Below, piece by piece: positions 1 through 5,125 of a DNA stretch of 5,125 nucleotides. Source of the DNA: a virus (lineage: Duplodnaviria; Heunggongvirae; Uroviricota; Caudoviricetes); the IMG/VR virus record IMGVR_UViG_2690316099_000009, one strand, 5' to 3'. Each line of letters starts with the position of its first letter. Position 1 is the stretch's first letter. A program made the position numbers and the translations under genes. The notes under the pieces were generated by a model, which was not told the DNA's origin, made no database searches, and was given only the letters and a program-made list of their open reading frames with translations.

Positions 1-2658
1 CCGACACCAATCCGGCTGGTCGCCTCCTTCGTGAAGACAAACTCCCCGCGATGAACAATCCCCGCAGGTTCATATTTACCCCCCGTCCCCGTAAATCCCC
101 CGGTCGCGAAATGGAAGTTCGCCGCCGCAGCCTGAATGGCCGTCCCCGTGGAGGCAGACGCACCACCACCGAAAGCACCGCCAATGGCGCTGCCGATACT
201 CCCGACTATCCCCACCATCGCCTGCTTCAGAAAAATCTCTGTCAGCATGGACAGCACAGAACGGGTGAAACCACGCCAGTTCTGTTCGCTGCCGATCAGC
301 ATCGCTGCCATATTCTGTGCAATACCGTCAAAGGTCTGCGTGGCCGCGTTTTTAACCTGCGAAAAACTGTCCGTCGCACTTTCCGCCCACTCGCCCCAGC
401 CGGACTTCATCCCGGCCATCCAGCTTCCACGAAGCTGCTCCTCCGCAGACCAGGTGTTCTTCAGTGCAGATGTGGCCTTCGCCAGCGCAGCCGGATTATC
501 ACCGTACACCTCNNNNNNNNNNNNNNNNNNNNNNNNNNNNNNNNNNNNNNNNNNNNNNNNNNNNNNNNNNNNNNNNNNNNNNNNNNNNNNNNNNNNNNNN
601 NNNNNNNNNNNNNNNNNNNNNNNNNNNNNNNNNNNNNNNNNNNNNNNNNNNNNNNNNNNNNNNNNNNNNNNNNNNNNNNNNNNNNNNNNNNNNNNNNNNN
701 NNNNNNNNNNNNNNNNNNNNNNNNNNNNNNNNNNNNNNNNNNNNNNNNNNNNNNNNNNNNNNNNNNNNNNNNNNNNNNNNNNNNNNNNNNNNNNNNNNNN
801 NNNNNNNNNNNNNNNNNNNNNNNNNNNNNNNNNNNNNNNNNNNNNNNNNNNNNNNNNNNNNNNNNNNNNNNNNNNNNNNNNNNNNNNNNNNNNNNNNNNN
901 NNNNNNNNNNNNNNNNNNNNNNNNNNNNNNNNNNNNNNNNNNNNNNNNNNNNNNNNNNNNNNNNNNNNNNNNNNNNNNNNNNNNNNNNNNNNNNNNNNNN
1001 NNNNNNNNNNNNNNNNNNNNNNNNNNNNNNNNNNNNNNNNNNNNNNNNNNNNNNNNNNNNNNNNNNNNNNNNNNNNNNNNNNNNNNNNNNNNNNNNNNNN
1101 NNNNNNNNNNNNNNNNNNNNNNNNNNNNNNNNNNNNNNNNNNNNNNNNNNNNNNNNNNNNNNNNNNNNNNNNNNNNNNNNNNNNNNNNNNNNNNNNNNNN
1201 NNNNNNNNNNNNNNNNNNNNNNNNNNNNNNNNNNNNNNNNNNNNNNNNNNNNNNNNNNNNNNNNNNNNNNNNNNNNNNNNNNNNNNNNNNNNNNNNNNNN
1301 NNNNNNNNNNNNNNNNNNNNNNNNNNNNNNNNNNNNNNNNNNNNNNNNNNNNNNNNNNNNNNNNNNNNNNNNNNNNNNNNNNNNNNNNNNNNNNNNNNNN
1401 NNNNNNNNNNNNNNNNNNNNNNNNNNNNNNNNNNNNNNNNNNNNNNNNNNNNNNNNNNNNNNNNNNNNNNNNNNNNNNNNNNNNNNNNNNNNNNNNNNNN
1501 NNNNNNNNNNNNNNNNNNNNNNNNNNNNNNNNNNNNNNNNNNNNNNNNNNNNNNNNNNNNNNNNNNNNNNNNNNNNNNNNNNNNNNNNNNNNNNNNNNNN
1601 NNNNNNNNNNNNGGACGACCGATATCCAGAATGGCATCCCACATCGATTTGAATGCCTTCCCTGTTTTATCCGCCCAGGTCTCCAGTGTTCCCATGTTTT
1701 CTTTCAGGCGACGGGTCTGCTCATCAAAGCCTTTCGTGGCGATATCGTTCGCCGCCTGCAATGCCCCGGCCTCGTCTCCGGAACGCTGCAGCTGTGCAAC
1801 ATACGCAATCTGCTCTGCCGTCACGTTACGGAACTGGCGCGCCATCGCCATCAGTCCCGACGTCGGGTCAGTGGTCAGCTTCCCGAAGGCTTCAGCGACT
1901 TTATCCACCTCCACACCGGATGCAGACGCAAAACGCGCGACACTCTGGTTGATGGCATCAAACTGTTCACCACCACGCACACCGGCATTCACCAGGGCTG
2001 CCAGTGACTCTCTCGCCTGGTTAAACGTCAGCCCTGCTGCCTGCCCGGCTCTTGAGAGAGTCAGCATACGATCGGCAGTCAGTCCGGACTGATTACCGGA
2101 AAGAACCAGGGTTTTATTAAACNNNNNNNNNNNNNNNNNNNNNNNNNNNNNNNNNNNNNNNNNNNNNNNNNNNNNNNNNNNNNNNNNNNNNNNNNNNNNN
2201 NNNNNNNNNNNNNNNNNNNNNNNNNNNNNNNNNNNNNNNNNNNNNNNNNNNNNNNNNNNNNNNNNNNNNNNNNNNNNNNNNNNNNNNNNNNNNNNNNNNN
2301 NNNNNNNNNNNNNNNNNNNNNNNNNNNNNNNNNNNNNNNNNNNNNNNNNNNNNNNNNNNNNNNNNNNNNNNNNNNNNNNNNNNNNNNNNNNNNNNNNNNN
2401 NNNNNNNNNNNNNNNNNNNNNNNNNNNNNNNNNNNNNNNNNNNNNNNNNNNNNNNNNNNNNNNNNNNNNNNNNNNNNNNNNNNNNNNNNNNNNNNNNNNN
2501 NNNNNNNNNNNNNNNNNNNNNNNNNNNNNNNNNNNNNNNNNNNNNNNNNNNNNNNNNNNNNNACCTGAAAAATGACGCCTTACCCGGCTCATCTNNNNNN
2601 NNNNNNNNNNNNNNNNNNNNNNNNNNNNNNNNNNNNNNNNNNNNNNNNNNNNNNNNNN
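1..2658 (-). CDS. H: Tail length tape measure protein, lambda gpH-like; partial, 3' end lies beyond window position 1; start is inside the 2595-3145 mask and the 2658 coordinate is an estimate
   Basis: Minus-strand translation of 2563-2592 gives MSRVRRHFSG (lambda H has an internal MARVRRHFSG about 22 aa from its N-terminus). 1613-2122 gives FNKTLVLSGNQSGLTADRMLTLSRAGQAAGLTFNQ...KAFKSMWDAILDIGR, closely matching lambda H. 1-512 gives EVYGDNPAALAKATSALKNTWSAEEQLRGSWMAGMKSGWGEWAESATDSFSQVKNAATQTFDGIAQNMAAM...IVHRGEFVFTKEATSRIGVG, matching the lambda H C-terminal region with about 80 aa still missing beyond the window. Codon frame differs between the 1613-2122 and 1-512 segments (see findings). 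Confidence 0.85.
513..1612. other. N-masked / undetermined block (1100 nt) inside the tape measure gene
   Basis: Run of n characters seen directly. Confidence 1.
2123..2562. other. N-masked / undetermined block (440 nt) inside the N-terminal part of the tape measure gene
   Basis: Run of n characters; H frame is consistent on both sides. Confidence 1.
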
Positions 2659-3145
2659 NNNNNNNNNNNNNNNNNNNNNNNNNNNNNNNNNNNNNNNNNN
2701 NNNNNNNNNNNNNNNNNNNNNNNNNNNNNNNNNNNNNNNNNNNNNNNNNNNNNNNNNNNNNNNNNNNNNNNNNNNNNNNNNNNNNNNNNNNNNNNNNNNN
2801 NNNNNNNNNNNNNNNNNNNNNNNNNNNNNNNNNNNNNNNNNNNNNNNNNNNNNNNNNNNNNNNNNNNNNNNNNNNNNNNNNNNNNNNNNNNNNNNNNNNN
2901 NNNNNNNNNNNNNNNNNNNNNNNNNNNNNNNNNNNNNNNNNNNNNNNNNNNNNNNNNNNNNNNNNNNNNNNNNNNNNNNNNNNNNNNNNNNNNNNNNNNN
3001 NNNNNNNNNNNNNNNNNNNNNNNNNNNNNNNNNNNNNNNNNNNNNNNNNNNNNNNNNNNNNNNNNNNNNNNNNNNNNNNNNNNNNNNNNNNNNNNNNNNN
3101 NNNNNNNNNNNNNNNNNNNNNNNNNNNNNNNNNNNNNNNNNNNNN
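2595..3145. other. N-masked / undetermined block (551 nt) covering most of T and the H start
   Basis: Run of n characters seen directly. Confidence 1.
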
Positions 3146-3599
3146 CGCGCCAGTCTGAGGGCAAAGTTCAGCTCGCCGTCGAAGACTTTCCCGCAGAAAA
3201 ATCATCATCAGTCAGCGTGTTATTTTTCGCCACTTCAGTAATATCAGTATCCGGACGAACAGCTTCGATCATCCCGGACAGGCACAACACCACGTCTTCC
3301 GCCCGGGCAATGGCATCGGCAGGCCAGGTGGTGAGCACTTCCTGCTCTATCTTCATCACGGCCTCATTCATTGACGGTGACTGCGTTTTCTGTGGATGGT
3401 TATGCCACAGGGACATCGCCACCAGAAACGCGCCGGTTCTGACGAGATCTTCCACGCTTACCTGCAGGTTGCCGCTGGATTCTGCCTGTTCTGCACGCCG
3501 TTTCAGGAGGGCAAGATGCTCGATACGCTGCAGCGCAGACAATTCGGAAAGCGTGACAGACACACCGTTATATTCAAATTGTTCTGTTTTCAGAAACAT
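2760..3599 (-). CDS. T: Tail assembly chaperone G-T fusion made by programmed -1 ribosomal frameshift at 3186-3192; the T part is almost entirely masked and the 3' end coordinate is an estimate based on lambda T length
   Basis: After the slippery heptamer the -1 frame reads VFDGELNFALRLA before entering the N-run, matching my recollection of the lambda gpGT junction (VFDGELSFALKLA). There is no stop in that frame in the readable bases 3146-3186. Confidence 0.55.
3168..3599 (-). CDS. G: Tail assembly chaperone, lambda gpG-like
   Basis: 143-aa ORF MFLKTEQFEYNGVSVTLSELSALQRIEHLALLKRRAEQAE...FSAGKSSTAS with strong similarity to lambda gpG. ATG at 3599-3597 is preceded by GGAGG (3610-3606) with 6-nt spacing; TGA stop at 3170-3168. 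Sits immediately downstream of V as in lambda. Confidence 0.93.
   Translation of the reverse strand: MFLKTEQFEYNGVSVTLSELSALQRIEHLALLKRRAEQAESSGNLQVSVEDLVRTGAFLVAMSLWHNHPQKTQSPSMNEAVMKIEQEVLTTWPADAIARAEDVVLCLSGMIEAVRPDTDITEVAKNNTLTDDDFSAGKSSTAS
3186..3192 (-). other. Programmed -1 ribosomal frameshift slippery heptamer G GGA AAG (G/T recoding site)
   Basis: Minus-strand sequence 3200->3168 is ttt tct gcg gga aag tct tcg acg gcg agc tga. The heptamer GGGAAAG sits 6 codons before the G stop, the same position and sequence as the lambda G-T slip site, and the -1 frame stays open into T. Confidence 0.85.
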
Positions 3600-3612: not shown

Positions 3613-4386
3613 TTACCCTGCAGCGCCCGCTTCAGTAACGGTGACTTCAGCCACTGCGGCGAACTGACCATTTCCGCTCACCACAGGGATCTGCACCTTA
3701 CCTGTCGCCACGCCGTTTACCGTAATTGTCATATCTTTCACACTAATGGTGGCTTTCGACGGATCGGCGGAAACCGCTCTGAACGTCTTGTCGGTTGCAC
3801 TTTCCGGCTCAAAAGAAACCGTCAGGGTGGTTGTTTTCCCTTTTGCCACCGTACCGGATGTCGGCGTCACCTTAATCGCACTGACCGGCGTAATTTTGCT
3901 GCGTTCTTCCGCTACAGAAGGTTTACCCACGTTAGTGACTTTCACCGTGCGGGTGATCACTTCTTTCGCCGTCACGGCCTTACCGATACTGCTGACCCAG
4001 CCACGAAACACATCCACCGTGCCATTCGGAAAACGGATTTTATAGGCCCGGACATCGCCGCTTTCAANNNNNNNNNNNNNNNNNNNNNNCCAGCCTATAA
4101 GCCCTTTCTGGCCTTCCTCTCCCGGTTTCCAGGCCAGCGTAAAACTGGTATCACCTGCAGATTTCTGCCCCTGCCCGGTCGCGCTCCAGTCCGCGTCTTC
4201 ATCATCCAGGTAGTTATCATCATAGGATTCAGCCGTCATCTCGCCCGGCGTCAGATCCTTCACCTTAGCCAGTCGCTGCCAGTCATCGTCTGACAACGGG
4301 TTTGCATAAGCATCAGCCTTGCCGTTGTAAACCCACAGAGTGGTACCGGCACCTTTTACCGGCTCCAGGGGATTTGGTGTTGCCAT
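3613..4386 (-). CDS. V: Major tail tube protein, lambda gpV-like, with C-terminal Ig-like (Big_2-type) domain; contains a 22-nt N-run at 4068-4089
   Basis: 257-aa [70 protein letters not shown]...[42 protein letters not shown]...[33 protein letters not shown], near-collinear with lambda gpV. ATG at 4386-4384 preceded by GAGGA (4395-4391); TAA stop at 3615-3613. Frame is preserved across the N-run (22 N + 2 nt = 8 codons). Confidence 0.95.
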
Positions 4387-4390
4387 ATCG

Positions 4391-4395
4391 TCCTC
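4391..4395 (-). promoter_or_regulatory. Shine-Dalgarno (GAGGA) for V, overlapping the U stop codon
   Basis: Minus-strand atgTGAGGAcgatATG: the U stop TGA (4396-4394) overlaps the GAGGA, 4 nt upstream of the V ATG. Confidence 0.7.
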
Positions 4396-4789
4396 ACATC
4401 TCGTATGTAATGGAATAAGTCAGATCCGCAGAGCTCCATAACGCCATATCGTCATCACGACGATACTCATAGCCCTGCGTAACCATCGTGGTAATCAGTC
4501 CTGCCAGTGCAGGGATCGCAGTCATCGCCGGATAAATCCGGCTTTCCATCCACTGATCGAGCTCCGAATCAGGTACCTGTGCCGGTAAAAACACCTCAAT
4601 ATGCAGTGTGGCCCGCCAGGTATCTGCATCCAGCTCTTCACCGGTATACTCTGCATCCGTCAGATAAACCGCGATCGCAGGAAAATCCTCTTCGTCAAAA
4701 ACAACGGGGCGACCATCAAACAGCGTCGCCCCGTGTTCATGCTGCTCGAGTGCATCCAGCACTGCGGCACGAATGTCAGTGTGTTTCAT
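4394..4789 (-). CDS. U: Tail terminator (tail tube terminator) protein, lambda gpU-like
   Basis: 131-aa [134 protein letters not shown], highly similar to lambda gpU along its full length. Its ATG (4789-4787) overlaps the upstream gene's TGA (4788-4786) as ATGA. Confidence 0.95.
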
Positions 4790-5125
4790 CGTTTTATCGC
4801 AATCCTCAGTTGTTGTTTCAGCGCGTATGCCAGTTCTTTAGGCAGGCGTTCACGCCGGATACGGTCAACATTCTCATCAAATGCCTGTTTCAGTGGGGCC
4901 GCCATCGGGATTTTCACCACCTGAATGGGAAGGCGATTACGCTTTTTCCTTCCCTTGTCGTCATTGCCCTCCTCATATCTGGCCTGGGGAAGACGTTGCA
5001 TAACATGCCAGCGCCCATTATTTAATCGCTGGNNNNNNNNNNNNNNNNNNNNNNNNNNNNATCGCTGGATAAATGCCCGCTGATAACGATGCTGACCGGC
5101 TTTGAGTATGCTGTTCGGACGACGC
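4786..5125 (-). CDS. Z: Tail completion protein, lambda gpZ-like by position; partial, 5' end beyond the window; contains a 28-nt N-run at 5033-5060
   Basis: Open frame ending ...[84 protein letters not shown], immediately upstream of and overlapping U, the position of Z in lambda. The same frame modulo 3 is open in 5061-5125 (RRPNSILKAGQHRYQRAFIQR). Assignment rests on synteny; I cannot recall the lambda Z sequence well enough to confirm by similarity. Confidence 0.7.
   Translation of the reverse strand, partial: RRPNSILKAGQHRYQRAFIQRXXXXXXXXXXQRLNNGRWHVMQRLPQARYEEGNDDKGRKKRNRLPIQVVKIPMAAPLKQAFDENVDRIRRERLPKELAYALKQQLRIAIKR

What the first reader, a model, noticed from the sequence alone, without database searches (positions are those of the whole stretch)
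499..1630. Reading-frame discontinuity in the tape measure gene across the 1100-nt masked block
Upstream of the mask the H-like codons (…KAFKSMWDAILDIGR) have their first base at positions congruent to 0 mod 3 (for example 1617-1615), and that frame hits a TGA at 501-499. Downstream, the H-like sequence (EVYGDNPAALAKATS…) is in the frame with first base congruent to 2 mod 3 (512-510). The intervening distance is therefore 3n+1. The other masks that can be tested (2123-2562 in H, 4068-4089 in V) preserve frame with exact N length, so the masks appear length-faithful. That points to a +1 or -2 indel in the hidden part of H (a defective prophage), a sequencing or assembly error in a repetitive coiled-coil region, or a non-exact mask.
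Basis: partly seen in the sequence, partly recalled or inferred. Interest (0 to 1): 0.5.

Follow-up and report, generated by a model that had tools for sequence, protein, structure and literature searches.

The report
Apparent tape-measure frameshift is an N-run artefact
The apparent reading-frame break in this phage tail "tape measure" gene comes from a run of N placeholders 247 positions longer than the DNA it stands for; identical copies elsewhere show an ordinary, intact gene.

Summary
On the minus strand the H-like frame upstream of the 1100-N run has first bases at 0 mod 3. Downstream it is 2 mod 3, and the upstream frame hits TGA at 501-499.

The premise that the N-runs keep true length is wrong. 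Five IMG/VR contigs match all 2984 unmasked bases with no mismatch. They hold 853, 347, 462, 1 and -8 bases where the window has 1100, 440, 551, 22 and 28 N. At the last run the two flanks overlap by 8 nt. Every fetched locus with both exact flanking 16-mers has 853 at the H run (13 of 13). A spread sample of complete E. coli genomes gives 841-859, never 1100.

With 853 bases, H is one open 857-aa frame. It is colinear with lambda H at 77% identity and carries Pfam TMP_2 and Tape_meas_lam_C. The two "frame-preserving" runs are also too long, by 93 and 21, which happen to be multiples of three.

This meets the finding's own refutation criterion. It is an intact, ordinary lambdoid prophage tape measure gene, not a frameshift. 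A real indel in the hidden bases cannot be strictly excluded (about 3%).

The parts
1..2658 (-). Lambda H-type tail tape measure gene. It is partial because the 3' end runs off the window at position 1. The start codon lies inside N-run 2595-3145, so 2658 is nominal (64 nt beyond 2594, as in L012).
   Evidence: In L012, which is identical in all unmasked bases, the gene is 8084-10657 (-), 857 aa, 77% identical and colinear to lambda H.
513..1612 (.). Run of 1100 N standing for 853 real bases, the central coiled-coil part of H (residues about 318-602). The excess of 247 (= 3n+1) creates the apparent frameshift.
   Evidence: spacing is 853 in 13 of 13 loci with both exact flanking 16-mers; 841-859 in 49 sampled E. 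coli places, none 1100.
1..512 (-). Unmasked C-terminal part of H (EVYGDNPAALAKATS...TSRIGV) containing the Tape_meas_lam_C domain.
   Evidence: translation; PF09718, 75.4 bits against a cut-off of 23.
1613..2122 (-). Unmasked N-terminal-half fragment of H (FNKTLVLSGNQ...DAILDIGR[P]), the second half of the TMP_2 domain.
   Evidence: (PF06791, 98.6 bits against a cut-off of 30.2).
499..501 (-). TGA met when the upstream H frame is carried across the 1100 N. It is out of frame in the real gene and has no biological meaning.
   Evidence: In L012 the true frame reads ...EEQRLREVYGDNP... straight through.
2123..2562 (.). Run of 440 N standing for 347 real bases of H. The excess of 93 is a multiple of 3, so phase is kept by coincidence.
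   Evidence: 347 in 22 of 24 loci.
2563..2594 (-). 32-nt unmasked island of H (residues MSRVRRHFSG, about 23-32).
2595..3145 (.). Run of 551 N standing for 462 real bases: nearly all of gene T and the first 64 nt of H. Excess 89.
   Evidence: 462 in 27 of 29 loci.
3168..3599 (-). Gene G, the tail assembly chaperone. The GGGAAAG slippery heptamer for the G/GT -1 frameshift lies at 3186-3192.
   Evidence: (PF06894, 173.5 bits). The lambda heptamer is listed in PMC3296357, Table 1.
3613..4386 (-). Gene V, the major tail protein. It contains a run of 22 N (4068-4089) that stands for a single real base. The real protein is 250 aa, not 257.
   Evidence: GGW-F-ESGD in L012; spacing 1 in 26 of 26 loci.
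4394..4789 (-). Gene U, the tail terminator.
   Evidence: PF06141, 207.4 bits.
4786..5125 (-). Gene Z (partial), interrupted by 28 N (5033-5060). The flanks of this run both carry ATCGCTGG, so the real flanks overlap by 8 nt.
   Evidence: spacing -8 in 13 of 13 loci.

Best explanation
The region is an ordinary, intact lambda H-type tail tape measure gene in a lambdoid E. coli prophage tail module (Z-U-V-G-T-H, minus strand). The frame discontinuity comes from the placeholder. The 1100-N run stands for 853 real bases, and the excess of 247 (3n+1) shifts the apparent phase.

All five N-runs in the window are too long, and one sits between flanks that really overlap by 8 nt. So the runs are not base-for-base replacements. 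They behave like scaffold gaps of estimated size between contigs of a multi-copy prophage region, or like a masking step that does not keep length. I cannot tell which.

**Shown:** the N-run lengths disagree with every identical or near-identical copy, and the gene is open and colinear with lambda H in those copies.

**Inferred:** the source of this window has the same 853 hidden bases.

**Function, from established knowledge rather than tested here:** the protein sets tail length as a ruler. The tail tube polymerises around it, helped by the G and GT chaperones.
For: **Identical contigs.**
- IMG/VR contigs L012, L015, L017, L018 and L019 match all six unmasked segments (2984 nt) with 0 mismatches and no gaps. 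L014 has 2 mismatches.
- Where the window has 1100/440/551/22/28 N, they hold 853/347/462/1 bases and an 8-nt overlap.
- The hidden 853 nt are identical in L012, L014, L015, L017, L018 and L019 and in L013+L032.

**Direct read of the junctions.**
- Window: TTTAATCGCTGG[N28]ATCGCTGGATAAATG. L012: TTTAATCGCTGGATAAATG.
- Window: CGCTTTCAA[N22]CCAGCC. L012: CGCTTTCAAACCAGCC.

**Spacing in other copies.**
- Across 31 fetched loci, the spacing between exact flanking 16-mers is 853 (13/13), 347 (22/24), 462 (27/29), 1 (26/26) and -8 (13/13). It never equals an N-run length.
- The best 30 E. coli complete-genome hits all span 1875 nt for window 1-2122, which is a gap of 853.
- A spread sample of 49 two-piece places gives gaps of 853, 859, 858 or 841.

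**The gene in those copies.**
- With 853 nt, H is one ORF of 857 aa.
- It is 77% identical to lambda H over its full length with only small in-frame gaps.
- It hits TMP_2 (232.5 bits) and Tape_meas_lam_C (71.5 bits).
- The 4639-nt reconstruction aligns as a single 4639-nt piece at 99.1% to complete genomes in which every gene is annotated intact.
- Tape measure ORFs in relatives are 828-866 aa. None approaches the roughly 940 aa that an 1100-nt centre would imply.
Against: - The hidden bases of this particular window were never seen, and the source record was not found. An exact 66-mer from the window gave 0 hits in genome contigs and in metagenome contigs. It gave eight viral contigs, none of which has N-runs here.
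- Genuine frameshifted tape measure genes do occur at low frequency. One of 49 sampled places, E. coli O157:H7 DEC4E, is annotated 'frameshifted'.
- All five excesses are positive. Simple unbiased gap-size error would not predict this, and I have not explained it.
Confidence: 0.95

Rival explanations
1. A real +1/-2 indel lies somewhere in the hidden part of H. The tape measure gene would then be a pseudogene in a defective prophage, and the N-run length is faithful or nearly so.
For: - The phase shift across the run is real arithmetic.
- Frameshifted H genes exist in public genomes: DEC4E is annotated 'frameshifted', and L010 has split tail genes.
Against: - The N-run length carries no phase information. 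All five runs are wrong by 21-247 nt, and one spans overlapping flanks.
- Seven contigs with 0-2 mismatches in the unmasked bases all have the same 853 nt and an open frame.
- The base rate of frameshifted copies in the sample is about 2%.
Confidence: 0.03
2. The source really carries about 247 extra bases inside H, such as a small insertion, a duplication or a miniature mobile element. It would also carry real insertions of 93, 89, 21 and 36 nt under the other runs.
For: Only that the N-runs are consistently longer than in relatives.
Against: - It needs five independent insertions, each exactly hidden by a mask, in a sequence with zero differences over 2984 visible bases.
- No relative among 31 loci or 49 sampled genome places has such spacings.
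- A 7-aa insertion in the V N-domain and a 12-aa insertion in Z have no counterpart in any relative.
Confidence: 0.01
3. A sequencing or assembly error, such as a homopolymer miscall or a collapsed repeat, in the hidden coiled-coil region of the source assembly produces a false frameshift in real called bases.
For: - The region is multi-copy in many genomes: median 2 and up to 10 places per genome.
- Indel-rich assemblies exist (L010).
Against: - The visible 2984 bases carry no indel or mismatch against five contigs, so the source is not an error-rich assembly.
- The phase shift is fully explained by the N-run excess of 247.
Confidence: 0.01

Closest known systems
Bacteriophage lambda gpH (tail length tape measure protein, NP_040595.1, 853 aa)
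   Same: - In the copies with identical flanks: 77% identity, colinear over the full length, and both Pfam domains TMP_2 and Tape_meas_lam_C.
- Same gene neighbourhood Z-U-V-G-T-H, with the GGGAAAG G/GT slippery site.
- The distance between the DIGRP and YGDNP landmarks is nearly the same as in lambda; the alignment over that stretch has only small in-frame gaps, and the protein is 4 aa longer overall.
[quoted passage not shown]
   Different: 857 aa rather than 853. The central coiled-coil part (about residues 318-400) is diverged, with small in-frame gaps. Nothing functionally distinctive was found.
Tape measure genes of E. coli lambdoid prophages (e.g. WP_001530573.1 in NZ_CM136175.1; phage PhiR12_1 'tail length tape-measure protein H')
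   Same: 99.8-100% identity to the window's H fragments in NZ_CM136175.1 and about 98.4% in phage PhiR12_1. Gap of 853 nt, annotated intact. The reconstruction is 99.1% identical end to end to many complete genomes.
   Different: None found beyond a few SNPs.
Genuinely frameshifted tape measure pseudogene (E. coli O157:H7 DEC4E, locus E3154_RS10125, annotated 'frameshifted')
   Different: In DEC4E the shift is in real called bases (gap 858 instead of 859). In this window the shift rests only on the count of N.

Membership tests
Lambda gpH-type tail tape measure protein | TMP_2 domain (PF06791) in the N-terminal half | tested here: met
   Window fragment 1615-2121 (-): 98.6 bits against a cut-off of 30.2, profile positions 100-207. 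Full protein of L012: 232.5 bits.
Lambda gpH-type tail tape measure protein | Tape_meas_lam_C domain (PF09718) in the C-terminal part | tested here: met
   Window fragment 3-512 (-): 75.4 bits against a cut-off of 23. L012 protein: 71.5 bits.
Lambda gpH-type tail tape measure protein | One continuous frame of about 850 aa, colinear with lambda H | tested here: met
   Met in L012, which is identical to the window in all 2984 visible bases: 857-aa ORF, 77% identity, colinear. The window's own hidden bases could not be read.
Lambda gpH-type tail tape measure protein | Position downstream of V, G and T, with the G/GT -1 slippery site | tested here: met
   Z, U, V and G are identified in the window. 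GGGAAAG lies at 3186-3192 on the minus strand. T is hidden under N-run 2595-3145 but present in identical copies.
Lambda gpH-type tail tape measure protein | Protein length sets tail length (ruler function) | not testable with these tools
   Established for lambda H (PMC1796659). It would need electron microscopy of deletion or duplication mutants.
Frameshifted tape measure pseudogene (defective prophage) | An indel of non-multiple-of-3 length in real called bases that splits the ORF | tested here: not met
   No indel in any visible base against five contigs. The hidden stretch is 853 nt and in frame in all seven near-identical contigs. The only support was the N count, which is shown to be unreliable. 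The hidden bases of the source itself were not seen.
Length-faithful mask (each N replaces one base) | N-run length equals the number of bases between the flanks in identical copies | tested here: not met
   1100 vs 853, 440 vs 347, 551 vs 462, 22 vs 1, 28 vs -8: zero of five.
Scaffold gap of estimated size between contigs | Irregular N-run lengths, flanks that can overlap, location in a region repeated within genomes | tested here: inconclusive
   - The 8-nt overlap of flanks at 5033-5060 and the multi-copy nature of the module (median 2, up to 10 places per genome) fit this.
- The source record was not found.
- The hidden stretches are not visibly more repeat-like than the visible ones against a second H copy in L015.
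- The uniformly positive excess is unexplained.

The most novel reading that the evidence does not exclude
The source genome really has extra sequence or a non-triplet indel inside the hidden central part of H. The tape measure gene would then be split: a decayed prophage, or an H gene carrying a small inserted element.
Probability: 0.03. Interest if true: 0.15.

Novelty: not a real feature. Interest (0 to 1): 0.03.

Why it matters
It matters for method, not biology. In this window the N-runs do not preserve length, so any inference from phase, spacing or gene length across them is unsafe. That includes the apparent frame preservation at 2123-2562 and 4068-4089, which is a coincidence. Other first-stage findings on this window, or on windows from the same source, that rely on N-run lengths should be re-examined. 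The gene itself is a common, well-understood lambdoid prophage tape measure gene: a place covering at least 80% of the reconstructed stretch occurs in 3668 of 5426 complete E. coli genomes.

Tried and rejected
1. **Looking for the source record.** An exact 66-mer (window 4175-4240, carrying window-specific SNPs) gave 0 hits in genome contigs and 0 in metagenome contigs. It gave 8 contigs in viral contigs, none with N-runs at these places. A second 50-mer (window 270-319) returned the same 8 contigs. Exact-protein look-ups for U and G returned only intact relatives. The origin of the N-runs therefore stays undetermined.
2. **A possible scaffold gap in L013.** L013 ends 761 nt into the hidden stretch, which I thought might mark a scaffold gap there. 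L013 and L032 turned out to be adjacent storage chunks of one contig with no gap. Rejected.
3. **Hidden stretches as repeats.** I tested whether the hidden stretches are the parts shared with a second H-like copy in the same contig (L015) or with lambda. Identity is about 78-80% across hidden and visible parts alike, with no pattern. Rejected as evidence.
4. **A rule linking true length to N-run length.** I tried a constant offset, a proportional rule and multiples of a k-mer size. The excesses 36, 21, 89, 93 and 247 fit none exactly. Left as unexplained.
5. **Natural H variants with a centre of about 1100 nt.** None appeared among the 30 best and 49 spread-sampled E. coli places, the phage hits or the 31 loci.

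Full report
**What is in the window.**
- The 5125-base window holds five N-runs: 513-1612 (1100), 2123-2562 (440), 2595-3145 (551), 4068-4089 (22) and 5033-5060 (28). That leaves 2984 readable bases.
- On the minus strand the readable parts encode a lambda-type tail module.
  - Z is partial.
  - U is at 4394-4789 (PF06141).
  - V is at 3613-4386.
  - G is at 3168-3599 (PF06894).
  - Two fragments of the tape measure gene H are readable: 1613-2122 (second half of Pfam TMP_2, 98.6 bits) and 1-512 (Tape_meas_lam_C, 75.4 bits).
- The canonical G/GT slippery heptamer GGGAAAG sits at 3186-3192 (heptamer as listed for lambda in PMC3296357).

**Check of the observation.**
- The upstream H fragment (...KAFKSMWDAILDIGR, then CCN = Pro) uses codons whose first base is 0 mod 3.
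- Carried across the run, that frame reads G-V-R-TGA, with the TGA at 501-499.
- The downstream H fragment (EVYGDNPAALAKATS...) uses first bases at 2 mod 3.
- The distance is 3n+1.
- The 440-N and 22-N runs do keep phase.

**Are the N-runs length-faithful? No.**
- The nearest complete E. coli genome (NZ_CM136175.1, locus L001) matches the H fragments at 99.8-100%. It places them 853 nt apart, not 1100. The other runs correspond to 347, 462 and 1 nt.
- A 66-mer carrying window-specific SNPs retrieved eight IMG/VR contigs.
  - Five of them (L012, L015, L017, L018, L019) match all six readable segments with no mismatch and no gap.
  - All five give the same spacings: 853, 347, 462 and 1. At the last run the spacing is -8.
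- Read directly, the window has TTTAATCGCTGG[N28]ATCGCTGGATAAATG where the real sequence is TTTAATCGCTGGATAAATG. The same 8 nt is printed on both sides of the run.
- The window also has CGCTTTCAA[N22]CCAGCC where the real sequence is CGCTTTCAAACCAGCC.
- Over all 31 loci fetched, spacing between the exact 16-mers flanking each run is 853 (13/13), 347 (22/24), 462 (27/29), 1 (26/26) and -8 (13/13).
- The best 30 genome hits all have the 853 gap. A spread sample of 49 two-piece places in complete E. coli genomes gives 853, 859, 858 or 841, never 1100.
- The excesses are therefore 247, 93, 89, 21 and 36 nt.
Both are multiples of three, which has a 1-in-9 chance and says nothing about faithfulness.
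- A run of arbitrary length breaks phase two times out of three, so the discontinuity is no more than chance gives.

**What the hidden part holds.**
- In the contigs identical to the window, the hidden 853 nt are the same in all of them (L012, L014, L015, L017, L018, L019, and L013+L032).
- H reads straight through...DAILDIGRPESSADML...EEQRLREVYGDNPAALAKATS... It is an 857-aa ORF (L012:8084-10657, minus strand).
- It aligns end to end with lambda H (853 aa) at 77% identity with only small in-frame gaps. It hits TMP_2 (232.5 bits) and Tape_meas_lam_C (71.5 bits).
- The 4639-nt reconstruction of the window aligns as one 4639-nt piece at 99.1% to complete genomes in which all genes are annotated intact. 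A place covering at least 80% of it is found in 3668 of 5426 complete E. coli genomes.
- Tape measure ORFs in relatives are 828-866 aa.

**Mechanism.**
- Biologically this is a standard tape measure gene.
- In lambda, the length of H sets tail length. [quoted passage not shown]
- G and the frameshift product GT are thought to act as chaperones for H (PMC3296357).
- None of that was tested here. It follows from family membership.

**Origin of the artefact.**
- The mechanism of the artefact is simple. The placeholder is 247 positions (3n+1) too long.
- Why the runs are too long I cannot settle.
- The 8-nt overlap of the flanks and the multi-copy nature of this module (median 2, up to 10 places per genome) fit scaffold gaps of estimated size between unmerged contigs.
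- A masking step that does not keep length would give the same picture.
- The source record was not found in any searchable collection.
- The fact that all five excesses are positive is unexplained.

**Rivals.**
- A real indel or insertion in the hidden bases cannot be strictly excluded, because those bases were never seen.
- Real frameshifted H genes do exist. E. coli O157:H7 DEC4E is annotated 'frameshifted', and it is 1 of the 49 sampled places.
- With the N count discredited, nothing positive supports a real indel here. The identity of the visible bases to seven contigs that all share one intact hidden sequence argues against it. I put it at about 3%.
- Five real insertions hidden exactly under five masks is about 1%.

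**Verdict.** The interpretation as a frameshift or defective prophage is not supported. This is not a real feature. Interest is very low, apart from the practical warning that distances across N-runs in this window cannot be trusted.

Noticed in passing
window 5021-5075: The 28-N run is flanked on both sides by the same 8 nt, ATCGCTGG. In all 13 loci with both flanking 16-mers the 8-mer occurs once, so the flanks overlap. This looks like two contigs joined by a scaffolder without merging their overlap.
   Followed up: yes
window 3186-3192 (minus strand): The canonical lambda G/GT -1 programmed-frameshift heptamer GGGAAAG is present six codons before the G stop. The T-frame continuation (GKVFDGELNFALRLA) is open up to the N-run (PMC3296357).
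   Followed up: partly
window 4068-4089 (gene V) and 2123-2562 (gene H): These two runs keep reading phase only because their excess lengths (21 and 93) happen to be multiples of three. As printed, V looks like 257 aa, but it is 250 aa in identical copies.
   Followed up: yes
L031 (NZ_CP038398.1, E. coli O157:H7 DEC4E) 748-3326: A genuinely frameshifted tape measure gene: the RefSeq note says 'frameshifted', it is flagged as a pseudogene, and its central gap is 858 nt where its closest relatives have 859. It is the only such case among 49 sampled places.
   Followed up: partly
L010 (GCA_045575475.1) 7169-12352: G, T, H, L and K are all broken into several short ORFs in an otherwise colinear tail module. 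This is either an indel-rich assembly or a decaying prophage.
   Followed up: no
L015 (IMGVR_UViG_2690316286_000003) 4843-8213 and 9091-13729: One 14-kb contig carries two lambda-like tail-gene stretches in the same orientation. One is identical to the window. The other is about 78-84% identical and covers H through part of V. This could be tandem prophages or a chimeric contig.
   Followed up: no
L002 (GCA_964205805.1) 8024-12396: Here an 833-aa tape measure gene is followed directly by a resolvase/invertase gene, a Collar-domain gene and a tail-fibre assembly gene, instead of the usual M-L-K-I genes. This is a mosaic junction or a truncation of the tail tip module.
   Followed up: no
L013 and L032 (IMGVR_UViG_2671180456_000007): Loci returned from the viral collection can be storage chunks of one contig. 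These two abut exactly (L012 positions 8944/8943). A locus ending in mid-gene is therefore not evidence of a contig end or gap.
   Followed up: yes
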